In this document: one piece after another, positions 3,777 through 61,486 of the stretch | Layout: each line of letters starts with the position of its first letter | Numbering within the stretch: position 1 is the first letter of the stretch | Virus record (IMG/VR): IMGVR_UViG_3300037264_006630 | Location: 1-64,000 of that record | Direction: 5' to 3' (one strand) | DNA length: 64,000 nt | DNA from: a virus | Translations under genes and position numbers: made by a program | The notes under the pieces: generated by a model | Databases searched by the model: none | Told to the model about the DNA's origin: nothing | What the model saw: the letters and a program-made list of their open reading frames with translations, nothing else

Positions 3777-3850
3777 GCTCGGGTAGCTCAGTTGGACAGA
3801 GCGGCGAGATCCTAACTCGCAGGCCGTCGGTTCGATCCCGGCTCCGAGCG
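3777..3850 (+). tRNA. tRNA-Arg(CCT)
   Basis: Cloverleaf GCTCGGG/TCCGAGC; anticodon arm GCGAG-ATCCTAA-CTCGC; TTCGATC loop; no encoded CCA. Confidence 0.9.
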
Positions 3851-3875
3851 CCGTCTTCACATCGTCACGAGGCAC

Positions 3876-10961: not shown

Positions 10962-11623
10962 CCGAGCCCGCACTCCCCGCGTCCAACCACCCCGGCCTCA
11001 CCGACGACCAGCGCTTCACGCTCGACTGCTACGAGCGCAGCCGCTCGCAGTGGGTGCGCATCGCCGGCAAGGTGGGCGTGGGCGGCGCCACCACGATGCA
11101 CGCCGAGGCCGCCGCGCAGATCCGCGCGACTCGCTGGTACAAGACCCGCGGCGGCTACACCACCAACGCCGTCGAGGCGCTGCACCTGGTCGGCCACGTC
11201 GCCCGGGTCGCCGGGGGCTCGACGATCAACGGCGGCCCCTCCGCCGACGAGCGGATCACCGGCTGGCTCTGCTACCTGGTCCACCTGGGCGTGATGCTCG
11301 ACGAGTGGGGGCTCTCGATCGGGCCGCTCATCGAGCTGGCCGACCGCTGGTCCCAGGGCGAGGAGAACCAGCTCAACCTGGCCTCGTCGATGGTCGACCT
11401 GACCGTGATGTTCGCCGCGCCGGTGAGCGTCCGCGCCGTCCCGGCCAACGTCGCCGACGAGATGCGCCGGCCGGCGTTCGCCGCGCTCGGCATCCTGACC
11501 ACGGCCGTGATCGCCACGGCGAGGGCGCAGGTCAGCGGCCCGGTCGGGTCCTGGCCCGATGGTGTCACCGTCATCGGACAGTTCATCGCCGCGGTGGACT
11601 TCGTCTGCGGTAGCGTCCGGTGA
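10958..11623 (+). CDS. Hypothetical protein
   Basis: ATGA/GTGA overlaps; high GC3. Confidence 0.7.
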   Translation: MTEPALPASNHPGLTDDQRFTLDCYERSRSQWVRIAGKVGVGGATTMHAEAAAQIRATRWYKTRGGYTTNAVEALHLVGHVARVAGGSTINGGPSADERITGWLCYLVHLGVMLDEWGLSIGPLIELADRWSQGEENQLNLASSMVDLTVMFAAPVSVRAVPANVADEMRRPAFAALGILTTAVIATARAQVSGPVGSWPDGVTVIGQFIAAVDFVCGSVR

Positions 11624-11949
11624 TCGGTCGCTGCGAAGCCTGGGACCTCGTGCTGCCCGTTCCCGACGATGGGGGCGAGCCGGTCTACGTGCATTGCCCG
11701 AACAGCGGGCGCCGCATCCAGGAGACCGATCCACTCGGCCGCCCCCGCCATCGTACGGTCTGCGGGCCCCACGGCCTCGACACCGCACCGGCCACGGCCA
11801 AGGAGGTCGTCTTGGTCGGCGCGACTGACGCGGATGTCCATGTGCAGTTCCAGGCGTTCACCATGTCGCTGTGGGACCACGAGCGGCGCGAGACGCTGCG
11901 GCTCGATGGCGACCTGGTTGACGATCCCCACGCCGAGGGCGCACGGTGA
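11620..11949 (+). CDS. Hypothetical protein
   Basis: Overlap-coupled ORF. Confidence 0.65.
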   Translation: MIGRCEAWDLVLPVPDDGGEPVYVHCPNSGRRIQETDPLGRPRHRTVCGPHGLDTAPATAKEVVLVGATDADVHVQFQAFTMSLWDHERRETLRLDGDLVDDPHAEGAR

Positions 11950-12191
11950 CGCGTCGAACGGGACGTCGATGGACGAGGCGACGAGTTCGCCGCTATGCGT
12001 CCTGCCCAGACTGCAACGAGTGGAGCCTGCGCGTCGAGGAGAACGGGAAGTTCGCCCGGCATCACCCAGGGCTCGGCTACGTCGAGCGCTTCCCACCCGG
12101 CCACCGGTTCACGGCTGGTCCGATCTGCACGGGTAGCGGCAAGCCCTCGGGGATGCCGGACATCCGCCAGCCAGCGAAGGTGGCAGCGTGA
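11946..12191 (+). CDS. Small Zn-finger-like protein
   Basis: CPDC...H...CTGSG. Confidence 0.65.
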   Translation: MTRRTGRRWTRRRVRRYASCPDCNEWSLRVEENGKFARHHPGLGYVERFPPGHRFTAGPICTGSGKPSGMPDIRQPAKVAA

Positions 12192-13327
12192 CGTGGTTCA
12201 TCATCCACTTCCACCCTGGCGCCCCGCTGGGCGTGCCCGCGATGGCGTCTGGGCCTTGGGCCGACCGCGATCTCGGCTCGCTTCAAATGGACGAGTGGCG
12301 CGCCGCCGGCGAGGTGCGCGAGGTCACCGAGCAGGCCGAGCGCCCGGACCTGCCGGACGACTGCCTGTTGACGCACAGCAAGGCGGACGAGTACGCGCTG
12401 GCGCACAAGCTCGGCCGGCCGAAGATGGGGCGGCCCCCGCTCCCAACCGGCACGAGCAAGGACAACTTCCAGGTCCGCCTCACGCCGGATCAGCGTCAAC
12501 TGGTCGACCGCGCCGCCGAGCGCGTAGGCGTCAAGGTGACGGCATGGGCGCGCCGCGTGATGGTGAAAGCGGCCGAGGAGGTGCTGGCCGCAGCTCGTCG
12601 CGAGGCCGAGACGGAGTCGGACCTCCGGGAACTACTCGCCGATGGGCTGGTCGAGAAGACCAGCGCCCCTGGAGAGCCGGCGCTCTGGGCCCTGACGACC
12701 GCGGGCCGGGCCGTGGCGGATGCCGAGCTCGCGCGCGCGGCGCCGGCCGCGAAGCCAGAGCCAGGCCCGCCGACTCCCGCGCCACCGCCACCACCGCCAC
12801 CGCCGCCACCGCCACCACCGCCACCGCCGCCACCACCGCCACCCGCCCGTCCGCTTGCGGTCCAGCAGGCCGGCCGCTTCACCAAGGGCGACCGCATGCG
12901 GCTCACCCCGGAAGGGTTGCAGCGACTCGCGTCGGCGTCGCACACCCCGTTCCTCCGGGGCACCTTCGAGGGCTACTGCCGCGATGGGGCCTGCATGCGG
13001 ATCAAGCGGGACGACATCCTGAGCGTCCACACCTACGATGTCGCGTTCTGGGAGCTGGCCTCCGCGCCGCCGCCTGCACCCGCGCCGCCGGTCGCACTCC
13101 CGTCCACGCCACGGCCCGCGCTCGCGCCTCCGGCACCGACGCCACCTCCTCAGACTGATCGCGCTTTGTCGAGTGGTCGCAATCGGTTACCTCGTAAACG
13201 GCCCGTTCTTCCGATCACGAGTTCTTCTGTCGTCCCGGCCGCTCCTCCACTCCGGATTCGCCTCCTCCCCGCAACGGATGCACCTGCACCCCACGAGCCG
13301 ACCGCGGACGAGATCTTCACGTTCTGA
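12188..13327 (+). CDS. Ribbon-helix-helix-like DNA-binding protein with polyproline linker
   Basis: GRPP...FQVRLTPDQRQLVDRAAERVGVKVTAWARR; about 20 consecutive Pro. Confidence 0.7.
   Translation: MTWFIIHFHPGAPLGVPAMASGPWADRDLGSLQMDEWRAAGEVREVTEQAERPDLPDDCLLTHSKADEYALAHKLGRPKMGRPPLPTGTSKDNFQVRLTPDQRQLVDRAAERVGVKVTAWARRVMVKAAEEVLAAARREAETESDLRELLADGLVEKTSAPGEPALWALTTAGRAVADAELARAAPAAKPEPGPPTPAPPPPPPPPPPPPPPPPPPPPPARPLAVQQAGRFTKGDRMRLTPEGLQRLASASHTPFLRGTFEGYCRDGACMRIKRDDILSVHTYDVAFWELASAPPPAPAPPVALPSTPRPALAPPAPTPPPQTDRALSSGRNRLPRKRPVLPITSSSVVPAAPPLRIRLLPATDAPAPHEPTADEIFTF
12782..12844 (+). repeat. (CCA/CCG)n polyproline-coding repeat
   Basis: Seen directly in the sequence. Confidence 0.9.
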
Positions 13328-13348
13328 CCCCAAGGACCAAGGACCACC

Positions 13349-13570
13349 ATGCTCATCGTCAACTTCTACGAGTACGTCGGCCAGACCCCGCTCGCGCGCA
13401 TCACGGCCCTGAACGACGCATGCCACGTCCCCAGCGCCGGGGAGTCCGTGACCATCGCCATCGACGAGAACGTCCCCGCCATCGAGGGTCGCGTCCAGCG
13501 CGTCGAGTCCAGGTACGGCGCGCAGGGCTGCACCGTCTCCGTCCACCTCTCCGACTTGAGGAACGTGTGA
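13349..13570 (+). CDS. Small beta-rich hypothetical protein
   Basis: Clear SD-like AAGGA; GC3 bias. Confidence 0.7.
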   Translation: MLIVNFYEYVGQTPLARITALNDACHVPSAGESVTIAIDENVPAIEGRVQRVESRYGAQGCTVSVHLSDLRNV

Positions 13571-14427
13571 CCATGACCGACTCCGACACCGCGCCTCTCG
13601 GCGCCCCCGTCCCCTCTGGCCCCACCGGGGCCGCCGTCATCGTCACGGCTGGCGCTGGCGGGGTCGATGCCCACTTCGCCGCGTTCGCGTTCACGCGGAT
13701 GATCGAGGGCTACGCCCTGAAGCTCGGCTACTCGGTCTACGACGCCATCGAGGACAAGACGCCGGACGGTGGGGTCAAGACGGCCACCTTCGCCGTCGCC
13801 GGGGACGCCGCCTTCGAGCGGCTGGTCATGCTGTCCGGCGTCCACCGCCTCACCCGGTTCTCGCCGTCCGACCCGGAGGGGCGCCGGACGGCGAGCTACG
13901 CGCTCGTGACCGTTGCCCCGCTGGTGGCCTGGGGCTCGCTCCGCTACAGCTACGGCCTCGATCCCTACACCAAGGCTACCAACCACCAGACCGGCGCCAG
14001 CACGCCCGAGGTGGAGTCCGTCCTGGGCGGCAACCTGGACCTGCTCTTCGGGGCGGTGGAGCCGGAGCCCGAACCCGTCGAGGTGTCGACGGGCGTGCCG
14101 CCGAATCTCGACGCGCTGATCAAGGCGTACGGCAAGGCCGCCCACGATGTGGCCTACGCCATCGGCGACCGCGGCCAGGGCTTCGACGAGTTCACTCCCC
14201 TTGTCGAGGCCCGTGATGCCGCCCGCAAGGCACTCGACGACGCCCTCAAGACGTTCGTGCCAGCCACCCTCTCCGACCAGGATCGCGGCCACCTCGCCGA
14301 GATCCGCGGCACGCTCGAGCGCACGCTGGACGCGGCCGAGCACAACGGCAACCGCGGCTCGATGGCGTTCGACGACTACCCCGCTTGGATCGAGTTCCTC
14401 GCCAGGCTCGCCGGGAGCGGCCGGTGA
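13567..14427 (+). CDS. Release factor 2 (PCRF)-like protein lacking GGQ domain 3 and domain 1, fused to an unknown helical C-terminal domain
   Basis: AGAGGVDA...RM...GGVKTATFAVAGDAAFERL...SGVHRLTRFSPSDPEGRRTASYALVTVAP joined directly to VAWGSLRYSY..DPY.KATNHQTG...VLGGNLD; no GGQ. Confidence 0.85.
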   Translation: MTMTDSDTAPLGAPVPSGPTGAAVIVTAGAGGVDAHFAAFAFTRMIEGYALKLGYSVYDAIEDKTPDGGVKTATFAVAGDAAFERLVMLSGVHRLTRFSPSDPEGRRTASYALVTVAPLVAWGSLRYSYGLDPYTKATNHQTGASTPEVESVLGGNLDLLFGAVEPEPEPVEVSTGVPPNLDALIKAYGKAAHDVAYAIGDRGQGFDEFTPLVEARDAARKALDDALKTFVPATLSDQDRGHLAEIRGTLERTLDAAEHNGNRGSMAFDDYPAWIEFLARLAGSGR

Positions 14428-14744
14428 CCGACGCCGCACCCGCCAAGCCCATCCCGATCATCGACCTCATCGACAAGTACGGTGAGGCGTGCGTGGGCAA
14501 CGGCGCGAAGGGCGCCGGTCACGCGGAAGACCACGCGGTGCTCGTCGCCAAGACGAACCTCCACGACGCGCTCCAAGCGCTCGCCAAGCTGGTCGACGAC
14601 GCCTGCGCAGCCTCGTACTGGCACGGCAACCACCTCCGCTTGCCCGGCAACGAGCATCGCGAAGCCGAGGCGGGCCGTACCCGCAACGCCCTGTGCGCGG
14701 CCATCGGCATCAAGCCCGAGACGCCCTGGCCGGTGAAGCCGTGA
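14424..14744 (+). CDS. Hypothetical protein
   Basis: GTGA overlaps. Confidence 0.65.
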   Translation: MTDAAPAKPIPIIDLIDKYGEACVGNGAKGAGHAEDHAVLVAKTNLHDALQALAKLVDDACAASYWHGNHLRLPGNEHREAEAGRTRNALCAAIGIKPETPWPVKP

Positions 14745-14768
14745 CGACTCGACCCGACGGCTGGCCTC
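14741..14768 (+). pseudogene. 5' fragment (MTTRPDGWP) of a gene split by the transposon
   Basis: Removing the element plus one TSD copy gives MTTRPDGWPLCPKCGADE... Confidence 0.8.
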
Positions 14769-14800
14769 GGCTTTGCCCGCAAACCCTCCGGAGTGGCGGT

Positions 14801-14833
14801 GCTGACCGCAAAGGGGGAGGCGCTGACCGCAAA
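14801..14833 (+). repeat. Two subterminal GCTGACCGCAAA repeats, left end
   Basis: 14801-14812 and 14822-14833. Confidence 0.85.
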
Positions 14834-15075
14834 CCCGCGGGGATACGCGCCGGTCGGACGCCATCATCACGCAACCCAGAGCACGGTCGGCCGATAGAGG
14901 CGGTCGACAATGAGTGAGCGGGCACCAGTGATCCACGCGAGGGCTGAGGACGGCGGCCGGCCTTGTTCCTTAGCCTCCGGTGCGCTGACTGAAACCGAAG
15001 ACGTCACCGCAACACCCCAGCGGCAAGAGATCCCTTCGGTTGACGCGGATCCACGGTGTGGCTACAACGTGGCCC

Positions 15076-15279
15076 ATGGCGAAAACACGGGGGAAGACAA
15101 AGGCCAGGCGGCCGAAGCCGCTGAAGGACGACTTGATCCGCTTTCGGGTCACGTCCGAGGAGAAGACGGGGCTGGAGGGGGCCGCGACCAGGGAGGGGAT
15201 GGACCTCTCGACGTGGATCCGACGGCTGGCACTGCAAGCTGCCGGCTTGCTTCCTGGCGCCTCGGACATTCACCGATGA
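15076..15279 (+). CDS. RHH/DUF1778-like regulator (possible RM controller)
   Basis: IRFRVTSEEKTGLEGAATREGMDLSTWIRRLAL; promoter TTGACG-17-TACAAC upstream. Confidence 0.8.
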   Translation: MAKTRGKTKARRPKPLKDDLIRFRVTSEEKTGLEGAATREGMDLSTWIRRLALQAAGLLPGASDIHR

Positions 15280-17849
15280 GGGCGGTTTCGGAGGCGGAGA
15301 CCGTCATCAAGCGCATCCTTCCTTATCTGGCCCGTCGCGGGTACGACATCGAGAAGGATCTGAGCTTTGAAGACCCCGTTGGCATGACAGCCACCGCCAA
15401 GAGTGGCTTCATTGACATCACGGTTCATTGCCAGCGCACCAGCCCCATCTTTCTCATCGAGGCCAAGCGGGACGGCACGAAGATTACCGTGAAGCACAGA
15501 GAGCAGGCGCTGGAATACGGAAAAGGCATTGGCGTCTTACTCGTGGCCGTCACGAACGGAAAGTCTTTCGAGTTGCACAATGCGACGACGAGAAAGCCGC
15601 TGTTCCTCAATGGGGCCGCGATGGACCGCATTCCGTCACGCAAGGACCTGCTTAGCGAGGTGCTCAAGCAACTCAAGCGAGATCCCGCCATCGATCGAAT
15701 TACGATTAGTGCGGACCGCTCGTTGCCCTACCGGCCTGGACTGCCGCTCTCGAAGCTCAATCACCTCATCAAGCAGTGTCATAACTCGATCCGGAAGATT
15801 GAGAAGAACGAAGAACATGCCTTCGCTGACTTCAGCAAGTTCATGTTCTTGAAGCTGTTGGAAGAGAAGTGGGACCAAGAGCAGGAGGTGCCTCCATACA
15901 GTTTTACTTTCCACGAGCTGGCCGCGACGCCGAGTGGGAAAGGAGATCGCGTTCGGGCAGCCATTAAGAGCATGATCGGCACGATTCAGAGCATCACGCG
16001 CTACGGTGACGTTCTAGCCGACCCGATTAGGCTGACCAAGGATGCGTCCTACCAAAGCATCGTTCGTCTCATCGCATCCGTCTCGTTCACCGACTGCGAC
16101 CTGGACTCAAAGGGGGCGGCCTTTGAGTATTTCGTCAGGGCAACCCTCAAGGGGAAGAAGCTCGGCCAGTATTTCACACCCCGCCCGCTCGTGAAGTTGA
16201 TGCTCCATCTCGGCAGATGGGAGCAGATCGTCAATAGCCTGTCCACCGGCGGTGACTTCAAGGTTCTTGATCCAGCGTGTGGGACGTCGGGTTTCCTTGT
16301 TCTCGCGATGAATCACTGCTTGGATGAAATCGATCGTCGACTCGAAGCGAAGACTATCCACAAAAACACGGCGACCGCACTCAAGAAGCGTGTCCGAGAA
16401 GACGTGTTCTACGGAATCGACGCACATAACGGAGTTGCTTGCTCAGCCAAGATGAACATGATCGTCGCGGGGGATGGCTCTAACAACATTCGCTGTGCCG
16501 ACTCGCTCAATGAGCCACATCTGATCCCACCGTACAAGCGGCACGCCGACGGCAAGGAGTGCCCGGACGGCAAGGCGCATCTGATTCTAACAAATCCGCC
16601 GTTCGGGACATCTGAAGCTGAATCCTTGACGCCTGCCAGTGCGGCAACGTTCGCGATCCGTTCGGCGCGCGGCCAATCGCTCTTTATTCAGAAGATGATC
16701 CAATCAGCGCACGATGACAGCCTCATCGTGACTGTCATCGATGAGGGCGTGTTGAACACCGCGTCTTATCAGAGTTTGCGGGAACTAGTTCTGAAGTCCT
16801 GCCGCATCGAAATGGTGCTCCAGTTGCCGGGGACAACATTCAAGCCGAACAAGATCGACGTCCGATCGAGCGTCCTCGTGCTGCGGAAACGCGCAGAAAG
16901 TGACGAGGACGTCGCCGATGACTATCCGGTTACGTTCGCCGCCATCGACTCGATGGGCTACGAAGGATCGGGCGACGAAGTACGCGGCTTCGACTTGCAC
17001 CGCTTGATCGCAGAAATCAAGTCTATCGACGCCAGCAAGCTCACCGAGGCGCAGGTCACGACGGGCTACCACTGGGAAGCTTTCCGTACTAACTCGCAGA
17101 CGATCGCGACAGACAAGACGCGTCGCCTGGACGTGCGCTACTGGCACCCCAGCGTTCGTCTTCCGATCATGCAACTCCGCGGGCTCAAGGGCACGGTGTC
17201 GGTCAAGGAACTAAACAAGATCCCCACGCGCCGTGGCAAGAGCCCGCCATCGGCCGAGTACGTCACGCCACAAGAGGGACACGCGCTAGTCGTCAAAGCC
17301 GGTTCAAACATCTCGAAGACCGGCGAGTTGATCATCGGCGGTGACTACGTCGAGCGCCAAGTATACGAGGAGTATGCTATCGCTGGGCTCAACCTTGAGG
17401 ACGGCGATGTGCTCCTAGCGTCGACCGGTGAGTACGTGTTGGGTAAGTGCTGCGTCTTCCGCAACCAGATCGGAGATGGAGCGACACCAGGGATCGCCGA
17501 TGGTCACGTCGCAGTGATCCGAGTCGACCAAACGAAAGTTTATCCAGAGTACCTCTGCGACTACCTGCGGAGAGGGTTCGGTCACGATCAGATCGCCAGG
17601 ATCCTTACCGGGTCAACAGGGCTGATCGAGATCACTCCGGATGACGTTGACGGCGTGCTTGTTCCAAAATTGCCTTCGCTGGCCAAACAGAAAGCGCTTA
17701 GCGATAGCCTTCGGCACGGCGAACGCGTGGCGGCCGAGGTGATCGCGAAGGCCGCCGAAAAGCTGCGAGCGGACGAGCAACTGTTCCGCAACACCACCAT
17801 GCCGCCCGAGTTCAAGTTGCTAGGCTACCGCGTCATCGGCGGCGACTGA
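15276..17849 (+). CDS. Single-chain restriction-modification enzyme (HSDR_N nuclease + N6-adenine MTase + TRD; Type IIG/IIC-like)
   Basis: FIDI...LIEAKR nuclease motif; GQYFTPRP, VLDPACGTSGFL, TNPPFG; C-terminal HsdS-like TRD; lower GC than flanks. Confidence 0.9.
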   Translation: MRAVSEAETVIKRILPYLARRGYDIEKDLSFEDPVGMTATAKSGFIDITVHCQRTSPIFLIEAKRDGTKITVKHREQALEYGKGIGVLLVAVTNGKSFELHNATTRKPLFLNGAAMDRIPSRKDLLSEVLKQLKRDPAIDRITISADRSLPYRPGLPLSKLNHLIKQCHNSIRKIEKNEEHAFADFSKFMFLKLLEEKWDQEQEVPPYSFTFHELAATPSGKGDRVRAAIKSMIGTIQSITRYGDVLADPIRLTKDASYQSIVRLIASVSFTDCDLDSKGAAFEYFVRATLKGKKLGQYFTPRPLVKLMLHLGRWEQIVNSLSTGGDFKVLDPACGTSGFLVLAMNHCLDEIDRRLEAKTIHKNTATALKKRVREDVFYGIDAHNGVACSAKMNMIVAGDGSNNIRCADSLNEPHLIPPYKRHADGKECPDGKAHLILTNPPFGTSEAESLTPASAATFAIRSARGQSLFIQKMIQSAHDDSLIVTVIDEGVLNTASYQSLRELVLKSCRIEMVLQLPGTTFKPNKIDVRSSVLVLRKRAESDEDVADDYPVTFAAIDSMGYEGSGDEVRGFDLHRLIAEIKSIDASKLTEAQVTTGYHWEAFRTNSQTIATDKTRRLDVRYWHPSVRLPIMQLRGLKGTVSVKELNKIPTRRGKSPPSAEYVTPQEGHALVVKAGSNISKTGELIIGGDYVERQVYEEYAIAGLNLEDGDVLLASTGEYVLGKCCVFRNQIGDGATPGIADGHVAVIRVDQTKVYPEYLCDYLRRGFGHDQIARILTGSTGLIEITPDDVDGVLVPKLPSLAKQKALSDSLRHGERVAAEVIAKAAEKLRADEQLFRNTTMPPEFKLLGYRVIGGD

Positions 17850-18176: not shown

Positions 18177-19403
18177 ATGAACACGGCGACGATCACGGAT
18201 GCGCGGCAGGTTCGGGGGCTCGCGTTGGCGAAGGGGAAGGCGAAGAAGATCAAGCCGGTGGCCGGGTCGACGTGGCTGGTGCCGTCGGCCTCGGGCGGTG
18301 GTGGCGGGTACGTGGTCGACGTCGACAAGGGGACCTGCTCTTGCCCGGACGCGGAGGAGCGCGGGGTCCGCTGCAAGCACCAGTTCGCGGTTGCCTACGT
18401 CCGGGCTGAGATCGCGATGCCCGACGGCGCGGTGCTGGTGGCGGAGACGCGGGTCACGTACGCGCAGCCGTGCTGGTCCGCGTACCACAAGGCGCAGGTG
18501 ATGGAGAAAGACACGGTCGAGCTGCTCCTGCGCGGGCTGTGCGACGGCATCGTGGAGCCGCAGGCGAAGAAGACGGGGCGCCCGCCGATGCCGCTGGCGG
18601 CGCTGGTGTTCGCGGCGACCCTCAAGGTCTTCTCGACGATGAGCGGGCGCCGCGCGTCGAGCGACATCCGGGCGGCCAAGGAGCGCGGGCGCCTCGGGAC
18701 GGTGGCGCACTACAACACGATCTCGGAGCACCTCGCGCGCCCCGATCTGGCGCCGCTCCTCAAGGTGCTGGTGACCGAGTCGGCCCTGCCGCTCAAGGCG
18801 ATCGAGTCGCAGTTTGCCGTCGATGCCACCGGCTTCGCGACCAACACCTACGCGCGCTGGTACGACGAGAAGTACGGCGAGGAGAAGCGCGCGGCGCGGT
18901 GGATCAAGGCGCACGCGATGGTCGGGACGAAGACGCATGTGATCACCGCCGTCGAGGTGACGGAGTCGAACGTCCATGACTCGCCGATGCTGGCGCCCGT
19001 CCTCGCGACGACGGCGGCCAACTTCAACATGCGTGAGGTGTCGGCCGACAAGGCGTACCTCGCGAACGACAACCTGACGGCGATCGAAGCGGTCGGCGCT
19101 GTGCCCTACATCCCGTTCAAGATCAACTCGCAGGGCAACGGGTCCGAGGCGTGGCGCCGCCTCTGGCACCTCTACAGCCTCAACCGGGAGGACTTCCTCG
19201 GGCACTACCACCGGCGGTCGAACGTCGAGAGCGTGTTCTCGTCGGTCAAGCGCAAGTTTGGCGCGGCCGTGCGCGCGAAGCTGCCTACGGCGCAGGTCAA
19301 CGAAGTTCTCCTCAAGTGCATCGCCCACAACCTGTCTATGCTGGTCCACTCGATCCACGAGCTGGGCGTGGATCCGAAGTTCTGGCGCGGGGGTGGGCAG
19401 TGA
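18177..19403 (+). CDS. DDE transposase with N-terminal SWIM zinc finger
   Basis: CSCPD...CKH SWIM; FAVDATGF, HDSPML, SADKAY, YHRRSNVESVFSSVKRKFG. Confidence 0.92.
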   Translation: MNTATITDARQVRGLALAKGKAKKIKPVAGSTWLVPSASGGGGGYVVDVDKGTCSCPDAEERGVRCKHQFAVAYVRAEIAMPDGAVLVAETRVTYAQPCWSAYHKAQVMEKDTVELLLRGLCDGIVEPQAKKTGRPPMPLAALVFAATLKVFSTMSGRRASSDIRAAKERGRLGTVAHYNTISEHLARPDLAPLLKVLVTESALPLKAIESQFAVDATGFATNTYARWYDEKYGEEKRAARWIKAHAMVGTKTHVITAVEVTESNVHDSPMLAPVLATTAANFNMREVSADKAYLANDNLTAIEAVGAVPYIPFKINSQGNGSEAWRRLWHLYSLNREDFLGHYHRRSNVESVFSSVKRKFGAAVRAKLPTAQVNEVLLKCIAHNLSMLVHSIHELGVDPKFWRGGGQ

Positions 19404-19744
19404 GCGCGCGGCGGCGGCGGGACGAGCCGGGCCGCGTGGCCTACGCGGTGGGTTGCGACTCCGACCTGACCGCGGAGGAGCAAGCGCACGCGCGCACGGC
19501 GCTCCGGTTCCTGCGTTCGCGGTGCGGCACATGGGAAGCGGTGGCACGGGTGCTGCGCTTCAACGGCACGCACATCGTGGACGCCAACACGGGGCGCGCG
19601 TCGATCACCGCGAGCATGGCGGTGCGGATCGCGCGCGTGGTCAAGGCGCCGATCGACGACGTGCTGACCGGCCGCTTCCCGGCGCCGAACACCTGCCCGC
19701 ACTGCGGCCACGTCGGACCCACCGAGGAGATCGCAGCGTCGTGA
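19400..19744 (+). CDS. HTH (XRE-like) protein with C-terminal CPHC
   Basis: GTWEAVARVLRFNGTHI...ITASMAVRIARVVKAPIDDVL. Confidence 0.7.
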   Translation: MSARRRRDEPGRVAYAVGCDSDLTAEEQAHARTALRFLRSRCGTWEAVARVLRFNGTHIVDANTGRASITASMAVRIARVVKAPIDDVLTGRFPAPNTCPHCGHVGPTEEIAAS

Positions 19745-20819
19745 TCGTCGCCCTCCGCTTCCACGGGACGGGCTTGCCAGCGGTCGCGCTGTTGCCGGGG
19801 AAGCGCGTCTTCACCATCGGCTCGGGCACCGCCGATGTTGTCGTGCCGCGCATCGTCGCCAGCGAGGTTGCTGACGTTCACGCGATCGTCGAGCGGACCG
19901 CCGACGGGCTGCGGTTGACCGAGTCCGGGGGCAACGGCATCTACCGCAACGCGTGGACGCCCGCGGTGACCGAGTTGCTACTTCACGCGGGGCAGGTCGG
20001 GTGGGTCGGGTCCGTGGCCGTGCAGGCGCTTGACGATCGGCTCGTGACCCTACGGCCGCGCGTCGCGTGGAACCTCGGGCTCGACGCGCACGCCGCGGTC
20101 GACGACGCCCTGGCCGTGATCGCCACCCGGGCGCCGCTCCTCTTGCTCGGCCCGCGCGGCACCGAAGGCGAGAGGCTGGCCCGCGCCATTCACGAGGCCA
20201 CGGACGGGGCGCGCGCGTTCGTGGAGACCGACCGCCCGATCCCGCACCTTGAAGACGCGACCCTGTACGTGGACCTCGACGGCCTCACCCGGCTCCCAGC
20301 CTCGCGCGCCGCCGAGCTGCTCCGGCCGTGGCGCGACCTCCGGGTCATCTTCAACGCCACGTCCGAGCGGCATGCCAGCGGCCTCTTGGACAGCCACCTT
20401 GCCAGCATCCACACGCTCACCCTGCCGCCCTTGGCCACCCGCCGCGCCGAAGTCCCCCGACTCCTCGGCGCCCTCTGGCACCAGCTCGGCTCCGGTTGCG
20501 ACCCCGCCACCGACCTTTCCCCCGCTGCTCTCCTCAGCCTCACCGCCCACGACTGGCCCGGCAACCTCGCCAGCCTGCGCGACAACGCCCGCCGCATCCT
20601 TGCCTATCACCACGCCGGTGGGCTCCGGCCCGCTGCGCGTACCCTTGGCATCAAGCACCAGACCCTCGCAGGTCACTTCAACCGGATCGGGTTCCCCATG
20701 CTGGACGAGATCCAGAGAGAGGAGCGGCTCGACCGGAAGCACCGGGCGCCGCGCGCTGACCGCAAACCTCCGAGGCTGACCGCAAACCCACGGTCACTGC
20801 GGTGTTTGCGGGCAAAGCC
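19741..20819 (+). CDS. Degenerate FHA + sigma54-activator-like AAA + HTH protein; no stop inside the element
   Basis: FTIGSG..DVVV; LLLLGPRGTEGERLARAIH; HDWPGNLASLRD; AARTLGI. Confidence 0.75.
20755..20786 (+). repeat. Two subterminal GCTGACCGCAAA repeats, right end
   Basis: 20755-20766 and 20775-20786, same orientation as the left-end copies. Confidence 0.85.
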
Positions 20820-21558
20820 GCTGGCCTCTGTGCCCGAAGTGCGGCGCGGACGAGGCGTACTCGCTCGCCATCCCCGCCGACCCGGCGGTCGATCTGCGGT
20901 GCTACGTCTGCGGCCCCATCAAGGTCGGCGAGAGCATCGGCCTGTTCGGCAACTGGACCCACGGCAAGGTGCCCGAGCTCCTCCAGGCCATCGAGGCGTT
21001 CGGCTCGGCCCGGTACGCGTCCGGTCGAGCTCGCGGGACTGCGCGAGAGCCTGCGGGACAGCACCGACCCCGAAGACCGGAACACGGTCGACTTCGCGAC
21101 CATGGCGCTCTCCCCCAGCGAGTACACCGACGCGGATGGCAACCCGATCCGCTCGCCGCGAGGTGGCAGCAAGTTCCGGCGCTCCGAGTGCCGCGACTAC
21201 TGCGCCCGCGTCATCGCCCGCCGCGACGGGCTGCCCATGCCGCCGGACCAGAGCGGCCTCGCCATGGAGGTCTACTCGTACGGGCGGCTGGTCTGGTCGC
21301 GGTGGGACCGCCCACGTCTCCGACTGCGGCTGCGCGATCTGCGCCTCCGACCAGCTCGAGCGGGTCTGTCGCCGGGGCGCCAGCACTCCGGCCGACCAAC
21401 TCCCGCTCTTCAGCCTCGCAAACGACGCCGAAGCCTCGATCATCCACCGCCGCATGCGCGACCTCGCACCCGGCCGGGAGTACGGCGTCTGCGTCGCCTT
21501 TGGCGACACCGTGCAGGGGCTCTACCGGGACGGCGGCTTCATCGGACCGATGAAGTGA
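20820..21558 (+). pseudogene. 3' part of the interrupted Zn-finger gene; two apparent +1 frameshifts (~21010, ~21308)
   Basis: LCPKCG...CYVCG in frame with 14741; the coding signal then moves through the other two frames. Confidence 0.6.
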
Positions 21559-59749: not shown

Positions 59750-59825
59750 TGGTACCACCTGCGGGACTCGAACCCGCACCACCCGGGTCTGAGCCGGGTA
59801 CCTCTACCAGTTGGGCTAAGGTGGC
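59750..59825 (-). tRNA. tRNA-Leu(CAG), short variable arm, CCA encoded
   Basis: CCCGG-CTCAGAC-CCGGG; TTCGAGT; A73. Confidence 0.9.
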
Positions 59826-59829
59826 GTCG

Positions 59830-59904
59830 TGTCGCGGGCGGGGGTCGAACCCGCACTGTCCGGTCCCTCAGACCGGTGCCTCCTGCCAATTGGGCTACCG
59901 CGAC
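59830..59904 (-). tRNA. tRNA-Leu(GAG), short variable arm
   Basis: CCGGT-CTGAGGG-ACCGG; TTCGACC. Confidence 0.88.
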
Positions 59905-59908
59905 GAGG

Positions 59909-59980
59909 TGCCGGCGAGTGGACTCGAACCACCAACTCGCGATTTTTGGGATCGCAGCCTCTGCCTTGGGCTACGCCGGC
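59909..59980 (-). tRNA. tRNA-Leu(CAA) with C33
   Basis: GCGAT-CCCAAAA-ATCGC; TTCGAGT. Confidence 0.85.
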
Positions 59981-60007
59981 CAGCTCGTCAGACGCACGAA
60001 CGACAAC

Positions 60008-60097
60008 TCACGCCGATAGGCGGAGAAGTCGAAGTCGTGCGGAGAGCAATCGGCGGGTCACGTCACCCTGGTAGCACCGCGGCGCCGCCGTCGTCAA
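60008..60097 (-). promoter_or_regulatory. Promoter plus 17-aa Leu/Arg-rich leader ORF (60008-60061) upstream of the tRNA-Leu trio
   Basis: TTGACG-18-TACCAG-6-GTG; MTRRLLSARLRLLRLSA. Confidence 0.45.
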
Positions 60098-60098
60098 G

Positions 60099-60181
60099 CG
60101 GAAGGTGTAGGACTCGAACCCGCCCCACGAGGGGGCCACCGAGCTAGCAACCCGGGTCGCGCCCATGCGCGCTCACCTTCC
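60099..60181 (-). tRNA. tRNA-Ser(GCT)-like, long variable arm, imperfect T-stem
   Basis: GGAAGGT/ACCTTCC; CCGGG-TTGCTAG-CTCGG; G73. Confidence 0.8.
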
Positions 60182-61398: not shown

Positions 61399-61472
61399 TG
61401 CGGGGTAGAGCAGCCTGGTCGCTCATCGGGCCCATAACCCGAAGATCGGTGGTTCAAATCCACTCCCCGCAA
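61399..61472 (+). tRNA. Initiator-like tRNA-Met(CAT) with C33 and paired T1-A72
   Basis: TGCGGGG/CCCCGCA; TCGGG-CCCATAA-CCCGA (three G-C pairs); TTCAAAT. Confidence 0.9.
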
Positions 61473-61486
61473 CTTGCCAAATGAAA

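What the first reader, a model, noticed from the sequence alone, without database searches (positions are those of the whole stretch)
13567..14427. Phage RF2 mimic with the catalytic GGQ domain cleanly deleted
SEEN: residues ~20-150 align with RF2 domain 2 (AGAGG..A, RM, GVK.AT, G.HRL.R.SP.D..GRR..S.A.V.V.P). They then join in frame, directly, to the RF2 domain-4 segment (WGS.R.SY..DPY.K..NH.TG...VL.G.LD). The ~110-aa GGQ-bearing domain 3 between them is missing, as is domain 1. The RF2 SPF stop-codon-reading tripeptide appears as SPS, and an unrelated helical domain follows. ESTABLISHED: domains 2/4 form the A-site decoding superdomain; GGQ hydrolyses peptidyl-tRNA; PrfH, ArfB and the RFs of recoded phages keep GGQ. 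INFERENCE: a junction at domain boundaries argues for a selected product rather than decay. It could be a catalytically dead A-site binder that stalls termination at UGA/UAA, a decoy for RF2-binding factors (ArfA, RF2-targeting defence toxins), or a shield against A-site nucleases. Most genes in this window end in TGA, the codon only RF2 reads.
Basis: partly seen in the sequence, partly recalled or inferred. Interest (0 to 1): 0.88.

Follow-up and report, generated by a model that had tools for sequence, protein, structure and literature searches.

The report
Phage release factor 2 without catalytic domain
A 185-kb uncultured phage carries a real gene for the stop-codon-reading body of bacterial release factor 2 with the peptide-releasing (GGQ) domain removed; it is a divergent member of an apparently undescribed phage family that probably sits in the ribosome's A site without ending translation.

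Summary
The gene (most likely 13573-14427, +) encodes RF2 domain 2 joined directly to domain 4. About 88 residues of domain 3 (GGQ) and all of domain 1 are absent, SPF reads SPS, and a 120-residue helical extension with no relatives follows. No GGQ domain exists anywhere in the complete 184,943-bp phage genome.

It is not a one-off. An exhaustive search found at least 25 distinct short proteins (112-250 aa) with the same domain-2/domain-4 join. Every context I read is a phage or phage-like contig. Two lineages show dN/dS of about 0.1, so the GGQ-less form is selected. None occurs in deposited phage genomes, and I found no paper on it. This scan met the family once before on other DNA (e1-3409941).

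The window's copy is the most divergent member. It keeps 19 of 25 near-invariant RF2 positions and has lost the invariant Thr of RRxTSF and the Phe of SPF. It has no close relative, so its own selection cannot be measured.

The mechanism is inferred. I favour a non-catalytic occupant of the decoding centre whose codon specificity is probably no longer canonical UGA/UAA. A decoy for RF2 partners and a decaying remnant remain open.

The parts
13559..13563 (+). Shine-Dalgarno-like GAGGA, 9 nt upstream of ATG 13573
   Evidence: Read directly from the sequence.
13573..14427 (+). Coding sequence of the GGQ-less RF2-like protein. It is 284 aa from ATG 13573. GTG 13567 gives 286 aa (P0001), and that numbering is used in this report.
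   Evidence: The protein as called in public databases (P0002) starts at 13573. GC at codon positions 1/2/3 is .68/.54/.95 and .73/.47/.91 in the two halves. The frame switches at 13567.
13624..13923 (+). RF2 domain 2 (residues 20-119), including the GAGGVDA helix tip and the SPS loop
   Evidence: Pfam PCRF E 2.4e-16. It aligns to T. thermophilus RF2 106-209. pLDDT is about 95.
13861..13869 (+). SPS tripeptide in place of the RF2 SPF motif (residues 99-101)
   Evidence: Alignments A1 and A4. At this position canonical RF2 has F 45, Y 7, H 1 of 53, and mini forms have F 16, Y 3, H 3, S 2, L 1 of 25.
13918..13935 (+). Junction P-L-V-A-W-G. The last strand of domain 2 runs straight into the switch-loop Trp-Gly that precedes domain 4, and RF2 residues 210-297 are missing.
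   Evidence: (two stretches meeting at residues 118-120) and alignment A1.
13927..14061 (+). RF2 domain 4 segment (residues 121-165)
   Evidence: It aligns to RF2 298-345 and is a single continuous match to 21 short domain-2/4 proteins. pLDDT is 88-97.
14101..14415 (+). C-terminal extension (residues 179-283), predicted as four helices, with no detectable relatives
   Evidence: Only the protein itself was found in 5.8 billion proteins. pLDDT is 50-76. hhalign to RF2 gives probability 0.35%. The Atlas returns only generic helical bundles.
13349..13570 (+). Upstream 73-aa ORF of unknown function. Its TGA overlaps GTG 13567.
   Evidence: GC3 0.97. No Pfam, PHROG or PADLOC hit.
14424..14744 (+). 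Downstream 106-aa ORF of unknown function. Its GTG overlaps the target's TGA (GTGA).
   Evidence: GC3 0.92. Called as a gene on the Logan contig. No family hit.

Best explanation
This is a functional phage gene derived from bacterial release factor 2. It keeps only the decoding superdomain (domains 2 and 4), has lost domain 1 and the GGQ peptidyl-hydrolase domain, and has gained a private C-terminal helical domain. It belongs to a family of GGQ-less 'mini-RF2' proteins in uncultured phages for which I found no published description. Shown here: the architecture, the fold, the absence of any GGQ domain in the phage, the recurrence of the same join in many phages, and purifying selection on the family. 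Inferred: the protein docks in the 30S decoding centre / A site as RF2 domains 2 and 4 do, but cannot hydrolyse peptidyl-tRNA, so it acts by occupancy. Occupancy would exclude RF2, tRNA or A-site-acting factors and so hold or shield ribosomes. In this copy the codon-reading residues are changed (SPS for SPF, Ala for the invariant Thr of RRxTSF). Recognition is therefore probably not canonical UGA/UAA reading, and it may be codon-independent, as in the PrfH recognition domain or Balon. The extra helical domain would supply a second contact whose partner is unknown.
For: - Architecture and fold.
- No PF00472 match in the complete 184,943-bp phage genome at E<=1, so domain 3 is not supplied by a split gene.
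- The exhaustive search gives 21 short proteins that match residues ~22-165 in one stretch. Alignment shows a 0-20 residue linker in place of domain 3. Four more distinct forms occur in six IMG/VR loci.
- Every context I read is phage or phage-like: portal, terminase, integrase, SSB, DnaB, Dam.
- dN/dS is 0.12 and 0.10 at dS 0.45 and 0.56 in two lineages.
- The family keeps 19-25 of 25 near-invariant RF2 domain-2/4 positions, and the SP of SPF is almost always kept.
- The window's gene has a strong codon-position signal in both halves, a Shine-Dalgarno plus ATG, and overlapping stop/start codons with both neighbours.
- Precedents for non-hydrolysing or codon-independent A-site factors of release-factor ancestry: Balon (PMC10901736) and the PrfH recognition domain, which does not contact mRNA (PMC9304027).
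Against: - There is no experimental or structural evidence that a domain-2/4 module alone binds ribosomes.
- Without domains 1 and 3 the contacts to the L11 stalk and the peptidyl-transferase centre are gone (established RF2 structure, from memory), so affinity could be low.
- The window's copy has lost six of 25 near-invariant positions (E89L, T109A, F111Y, R127Y, D139N, R141Q) and has fewer Lys+Arg (11) than any canonical RF2 sampled (12-22).
- It has no close relative, so selection on this gene itself is unmeasured.
- A general termination blocker would also hit the phage's own TGA-ended genes.
Confidence: 0.45

Rival explanations
1. It is an off-ribosome decoy. The protein imitates the domain-2/4 surface of host RF2 and soaks up something that binds RF2 there, such as an ArfA/BrfA-type rescue factor, a toxin or a defence sensor aimed at RF2. 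The C-terminal domain would add avidity or an effector.
For: The fold is that of RF2 domains 2 and 4, and the best structural matches include ArfA-RF2 and BrfA-RF2 complexes. Loss of the codon-reading Thr and of the Phe of SPF, with the fold retained, fits a role that no longer needs mRNA reading. The gene lies among accessory genes: an RHH/TacA-like protein, a methyltransferase and a transposase.
Against: No partner is identified. No gene is conserved beside mini-RF2 genes in eight loci. There is no PADLOC hit. Most family members keep the residues that read stop codons and touch rRNA, which a pure decoy would not need. The similarity to ArfA-RF2 entries simply reflects the RF2 chain in those entries.
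Confidence: 0.2
2. It is a sensor or shield of a particular ribosome state. Like the rRNA-recognition domain of PrfH, the diverged domain-2/4 module would recognise a vacant or damaged decoding centre rather than a stop codon. It would then protect that centre from A-site nucleases, or park ribosomes in the manner of a hibernation factor.
For: The PrfH domain-2/4 homologue binds damaged ribosomes without touching mRNA (PMC9304027). Balon occupies the A site independently of mRNA (PMC10901736). The window's copy has altered codon-reading residues.
Against: NCBIfam gives only prfB/prfA matches and none to a PrfH model. There is no RtcB in the phage. This reading overlaps the best explanation and differs only in what is recognised, and nothing here discriminates between them.
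Confidence: 0.15
3. It is a decaying remnant of a captured prfB. The open frame survives only because stop codons are rare in 69% G+C DNA, and the product has no function.
For: It is a singleton: only the same sediment sample holds it. It sits on the longest class of branches in the tree (1.65). It ties for the lowest retention of invariant RF2 positions (19 of 25). Long spurious ORFs are common here, for example a 357-codon antisense ORF over the same region.
Against: GC3 of 0.95 and 0.91 with GC2 of 0.54 and 0.47 across both halves is the pattern of a maintained coding frame. The deletion is exactly at domain boundaries and matches a family under purifying selection. The gene has a Shine-Dalgarno plus ATG and overlapping stop/start codons with both neighbours. 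A 120-residue extension with the same coding signal has been added rather than lost.
Confidence: 0.12

Closest known systems
Bacterial class I release factor RF2 (PrfB; TIGR00020; Pfam PCRF PF03462 + RF-1 PF00472)
   Same: Domains 2 and 4 are homologous in sequence and fold. Identity is 46% over 147 columns to Myxococcota-type RF2, and rmsd is about 3 A to 4v67 RF2. The GAGG helix tip, GVHRL, the SP of SPF, RR and the switch-loop Trp-Gly are kept.
   Different: There is no domain 1 and no domain 3/GGQ. SPF reads SPS, and the invariant Thr of RRxTSF is Ala. A 120-residue helical C-terminal domain has been added. The gene is phage-borne. The prfB score is far under the cut-off (83.8 against 370 bits).
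GGQ-less 'mini-RF2' proteins of uncultured phages
   Same: Domain 2 joins directly to domain 4 and domain 1 is absent. They sit in phage genomes as stand-alone accessory genes with no conserved neighbour.
   Different: Typical members are 112-200 aa and end after domain 4, and most keep SPF and RRHTSF. The window's protein is 284 aa, has a private C-terminal domain, has the shortest linker and is among the least conserved at invariant positions.
PrfH (RF-H) of the rtcB2-prfH ribosome rescue/repair operon (PMC9304027)
   Same: It is an RF1/RF2 homologue without domain 1, and its diverged domain-2/4 module recognises the ribosome rather than a stop codon.
   Different: PrfH keeps a conserved, catalytically required GGQ domain and is paired with RtcB. 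Here there is no GGQ domain and no RtcB in the genome, and no PrfH model was matched.
Balon and Pelota/Dom34 (aeRF1 family; PMC10901736)
   Same: They work alike in concept: a release-factor relative without GGQ occupies the A site without releasing the peptide.
   Different: They have an unrelated fold and ancestry (aeRF1 type, three domains, delivered with EF-Tu or its homologues). They are cellular genes, not phage genes, and their middle domain is retained.
ArfB/YaeJ and ICT1 (GGQ domain plus C-terminal tail)
   Same: They are truncated members of the class I release-factor superfamily that act on ribosomes.
   Different: The truncation is the opposite one. They keep domain 3 (GGQ) and lack domains 2 and 4, whereas this protein keeps domains 2 and 4 and lacks domain 3.

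Membership tests
RF2 (PrfB) | PCRF region: codon-recognition domains 2 and 4 | tested here: met
   PF03462 E 2.4e-16. The two stretches align to RF2 106-209 and 298-345. Foldseek's top hits are RF2 chains.
RF2 (PrfB) | RF-1 domain with the GGQ motif (peptidyl-tRNA hydrolysis) | tested here: not met
   There is no PF00472 hit at E<=10 in the protein and none in the whole phage genome at E<=1. The alignment shows the whole domain missing.
RF2 (PrfB) | N-terminal helical domain 1 | tested here: not met
   The alignment starts at RF2 residue ~106, and only ~18 disordered residues precede it. The C-terminal extension is not a displaced domain 1 (hhalign probability 0.35%).
RF2 (PrfB) | SPF tripeptide and the Thr of RRxTSF that read the stop codon | tested here: not met
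   The protein has SPS and RRTASY. The Thr is invariant in 53 of 53 canonical RF2 sampled. The assignment of these residues to codon reading comes from the published 70S-RF2 structures, recalled from memory.
RF2 (PrfB) | Score at or above the NCBIfam TIGR00020 cut-off (370 bits) | tested here: not met
   83.8 bits.
Phage GGQ-less mini-RF2 family (defined here by architecture) | Domain 2 joined to domain 4 through a linker of 0-20 residues, with no domain 1 and no domain 3 | tested here: met
   The protein makes single-stretch matches to 21 such proteins. See also alignments A1 and A4.
Phage GGQ-less mini-RF2 family (defined here by architecture) | Encoded in a phage genome | tested here: met
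   G000 is a virus record with direct terminal repeats that CheckV rates 100% complete. It encodes a major head protein, a tape measure protein and baseplate wedge proteins.
Phage GGQ-less mini-RF2 family (defined here by architecture) | Common descent with the other members (one clade) | tested here: inconclusive
   The tree is unresolved on 147 columns. The AU test does not reject one clade (p 0.30). The L013 form sits beside full-length RF2s, which hints at repeated origins.
Phage GGQ-less mini-RF2 family (defined here by architecture) | Purifying selection on the gene | tested here: inconclusive
   The family shows dN/dS of 0.10-0.12 in two lineages. The window's gene has no close relative, so only the codon-position signal is available for it.
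PrfH | Conserved GGQ domain, and pairing with RtcB | tested here: not met
   No PF00472 and no PF01139 in the genome. No PrfH model was matched.
Balon / Pelota (aeRF1 family) | aeRF1-type three-domain fold | tested here: not met
   Pfam gives only PCRF. All top structural matches are bacterial RF1/RF2.

The most novel reading that the evidence does not exclude
Phages have repeatedly kept (or made) a catalytically dead RF2 consisting only of the decoding module. It would be a viral factor that occupies the host ribosome's A site to stall, shield or re-programme termination. The window's copy would be a derived form with changed recognition residues and an added effector or partner-binding domain. 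That would be a new class of viral translation modulator acting at the termination step.
Probability: 0.35. Interest if true: 0.85.

Novelty: new variant of a known kind. Interest (0 to 1): 0.62.

Why it matters
Class I release factors are defined by two jobs, reading the stop codon and hydrolysing peptidyl-tRNA through GGQ. Every described bacterial relative I considered (RF1, RF2, PrfH, ArfB) keeps GGQ. A phage family that keeps only the reading module, under purifying selection, suggests that viruses use the decoding-centre binding activity on its own. If so, it would give a natural tool for separating stop-codon recognition from catalysis. It would also point to a possible new route of host take-over or counter-defence at the termination step. 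Finally, genome annotation currently labels such genes 'release factor 2' or 'protein subunit release factor B', and for a protein without GGQ that label is probably wrong.

Tried and rejected
1. Close relatives of the whole protein: none in 5.8 billion proteins apart from the protein itself, and none in IMG/VR by peptide patterns.
2. Relatives of the C-terminal extension alone: none.
3. Profile search with the mini-RF2 alignment: swamped by truncated canonical RF2 fragments, so it gave no census. The first IMG/VR scan with the wide alignment failed for lack of a conserved stretch.
4. Lak megaphage tblastn hits seemed to span the junction, but the Lak gene is a full 378-aa RF2 with GGQ. Rejected as a member.
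5. Deposited phage genomes: only full-length RF2, no mini form.
6. Megablast of the surrounding 13 kb against plasmids and phages: no match.
7. C-terminal extension as a permuted RF2 domain 1: rejected (hhalign probability 0.35%). The Atlas gave only generic helical bundles, all under 0.8 by features.
8. Split gene supplying domain 3 in trans: no PF00472 in the genome.
9. PrfH-type pairing: no RtcB.
10. Conserved partner gene beside mini-RF2 genes: none in eight loci.
11. Homodimer of residues 168-286 (complex prediction): no answer, score 0.23 under the mark. This is not evidence either way.
12. Sequencing runs: no RNA holder is listed. Only the probable source sediment metagenome holds the stretch, and three runs hold small unlaid shares.
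13. Single versus multiple origin of the deletion: unresolved.
14. Net charge of the domain: within the range of the family, so not informative.
15. Promoter and terminator scan of 11500-15500: nothing.
16. Recoding: no suppressor tRNA among the phage's seven tRNAs.
17. Literature: six full-text searches found no description of GGQ-less RF2 domain-2/4 proteins.

Full report
**What is there.** The window is the first 64 kb of a 184,943-bp virus record with direct terminal repeats, rated 100% complete. It has 69% G+C. It encodes a major head protein, a tape-measure-like protein and baseplate wedge proteins, so it is a large tailed phage. Only one sediment metagenome holds it.

The finding's ORF lies in a run of + strand genes. 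Codon-position G+C shows that coding in this frame begins at about 13567. Upstream of that, the frame of a 73-codon gene (13349-13570) carries the signal. GAGGA sits 9 nt before ATG 13573, which is also the start used in public gene calls (P0002, 284 aa). The stop TGA (14425-14427) overlaps the GTG of a 106-codon gene, and the upstream gene's TGA overlaps GTG 13567. The three genes are therefore tightly packed. GC3 is 0.95 over the RF2-like half and 0.91 over the C-terminal half.

**Check of the observation.**
- Pfam finds PCRF over residues 21-114 (E 2.4e-16), covering only the second half of the model, and finds no RF-1 domain even at E<=10.
- NCBIfam prfB scores 83.8 bits against a cut-off of 370.
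- Against PDB sequences, residues 17-120 align to T. thermophilus RF2 106-209. Residues 118-165 align to RF2 298-345; that second stretch is weak alone (9.9 bits) but is confirmed by the family alignment and the model.
- About 88 residues of domain 3 and about 105 residues of domain 1 are therefore missing.
- AlphaFold2 with a 62-sequence alignment gives pLDDT of about 95 for residues 20-165 and four helices at 179-283 with pLDDT 50-76.
- Foldseek's best PDB hits are RF2 chains (4v67_AX E 3.5e-11, rmsd 3.0 A; 1gqe).
- The tripeptide at the SPF position is SPS.
- The phage genome has no PF00472 match at E<=1, so domain 3 is not supplied by a separate gene.

**Is the junction shared?** Word-based searches found only the protein itself plus ordinary RF2s. 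The best of those were Myxococcota-type RF2s, 48-53% identical over domain 2. The exhaustive search of 1.84 billion representatives gave a different picture. Among the best 150 hits, 21 proteins of 132-250 aa match residues ~22-165 in a single stretch. Aligned with canonical RF2, they all lack domain 1 and replace domain 3 with a linker of roughly 0-20 residues.

An IMG/VR scan added four more distinct forms of 112-197 aa, in six loci, among 27 loci. The other 21 loci carry full RF2 with GGQ. Every context I could read is a phage or phage-like contig:
- integrase, small terminase and portal (L009);
- SSB, AAA_24, DUF3799 and Dam (L010);
- DnaB, primase and SSB (L041);
- dense small ORFs (L008).

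No neighbouring gene is shared among eight loci. None of the 50,697 deposited phage records has the short form.

**Selection.** Two pairs of moderately diverged family members give dN/dS of 0.12 (dS 0.45) and 0.10 (dS 0.56). The GGQ-less form is therefore maintained by purifying selection.

Whether the deletion arose once or several times is open. On 147 columns the tree is unresolved. Mini forms are scattered, and the L013 form groups with a full-length phage RF2 on short branches. However, an AU test does not reject a single clade (p 0.30).

**How the window's copy differs.** Of 25 domain-2/4 columns that are at least 95% conserved in 53 canonical RF2s, family members keep 19-25. The window keeps 19, tied for lowest, with E89L, T109A, F111Y, R127Y, D139N and R141Q. 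T109 is the Thr of RRxTSF, invariant in all 53 canonical RF2s. The Phe of SPF is Ser.

By my recollection of the 70S-RF2 termination complexes, the SPF loop and that Thr contact the second and third stop-codon bases. Canonical UGA/UAA reading is therefore doubtful for this copy. The GGxD tip is normal, since canonical RF2 has E or D about equally.

The window also has the shortest linker and a 120-residue C-terminal extension. The extension has no relatives and no similarity to RF2 domain 1, and only generic helical-bundle look-alikes turned up. The protein sits on a long branch (1.65) and has no close relative, so its own dN/dS cannot be measured.

**Mechanism.** These points are shown: a well-folded RF2 decoding module, no catalytic domain, phage-borne, and a family under selection. 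The rest is inference.

I favour occupancy of the 30S decoding centre without hydrolysis. Depending on what is recognised, this would block RF2, hold ribosomes or shield the A site. Two precedents show that release-factor relatives can work this way:
- Balon is an aeRF1 relative without GGQ that occupies the A site independently of mRNA (PMC10901736).
- The domain-2/4 homologue of PrfH binds damaged ribosomes without touching mRNA (PMC9304027).

For canonical-looking members, competition with RF2 at UGA/UAA is the natural prediction. For this copy, altered or codon-independent recognition is more likely.

Three rivals remain: an off-ribosome decoy for RF2 partners, a state-specific sensor or shield, and a decaying remnant. 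The remnant reading is weakened by the coding signal in both halves, the clean domain boundaries, the gene packing and the added domain. It is not excluded, because long open frames are cheap in 69% G+C DNA.

**Comparison with the known.** The protein is not RF2, because it has no GGQ domain, no domain 1, no SPF, and a score under the cut-off. It is not PrfH, because there is no GGQ and no RtcB. It is not ArfB, which has the opposite truncation. It is not of the aeRF1 family.

It fits a GGQ-less domain-2/4 family of uncultured phages. I found no published description of that family in six full-text searches. An earlier report of this scan reached the same view on other DNA (e1-3409941). I checked that claim independently here.

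**Verdict.** This is a new architectural variant within the class I release-factor superfamily. It is a second sighting of the family in this scan, and this copy is an unusual, extended and divergent member. The function is untested. The TGA-usage argument carries no weight.

Noticed in passing
window 15276-17849 (+), with 18177-19403 (+): An 857-aa fused methyltransferase with a specificity region (PADLOC MTase_II PDLC03317, E 6e-231; Pfam HSDR_N_2, N6_Mtase, MmeI_Mtase) lies in a stretch of lower G+C (0.59-0.64 against 0.69). A DDE transposase gene follows directly. It looks like a recent insertion into the phage, 0.85 kb downstream of the RF2-like gene.
   Followed up: partly
window 12188-13327 (+): A 379-aa protein with a ribbon-helix-helix region (TacA1-like E 3e-5; NikA-like weak) and an uninterrupted run of about 28 prolines. 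It ends about 20 bp before the 73-aa ORF, which directly precedes the RF2-like gene.
   Followed up: partly
window 3777-3852, 59750-60181, 61399-61473; L006 9418-9490: The phage carries seven tRNA genes: Arg-CCU, Leu-CAG, Leu-GAG, Leu-CAA, Ser-GCU, Met-CAU and Val-UAC. None is a suppressor.
   Followed up: no
window 19741-21558 (+): A 605-aa protein whose residues 223-287 match the AAA+ lid of RtcR/PspF-type regulators (PADLOC RtcR_PspF2 E 4e-10; Pfam AAA_lid_14 weak). It is otherwise unknown.
   Followed up: no
L021 4977-5315: A 112-aa ultra-short GGQ-less form in a 54.9-kb, 65% G+C IMG/VR contig. It also lacks most of the alpha/beta insert of domain 2, yet keeps GVHRLVRVSPFD, RRHT and VRSYILDPY. 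It may be of the same kind as the 108-residue protein of the earlier report e1-3409941.
   Followed up: partly
L013 4026-4562 versus L022 158-1126: The 178-aa short form in L013 keeps all 25 near-invariant RF2 positions. It groups with a full-length phage RF2 (L022) and a bacterial RF2 (P0189) on short branches. It looks like a recent, separate deletion of domain 3, but the test of one origin was inconclusive.
   Followed up: partly
L007 11222-15991 (G000 175222-179991): A 1589-aa protein with strong matches to phage DNA helicase (phrog_62 E 1e-60) and primase / P-loop families. It is probably a fused primase-helicase, and its 'terminase large subunit' PHROG hits cover the same P-loop region.
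   Followed up: no
P0182 (215 aa) and P0270 (286 aa): Two metagenomic proteins keep part or all of domain 1 and domain 2 and then jump to domain 4. In P0270 the SPF loop is missing as well. They may be separate deletion products, broken genes or assembly artefacts. I left them out of the family count.
   Followed up: no
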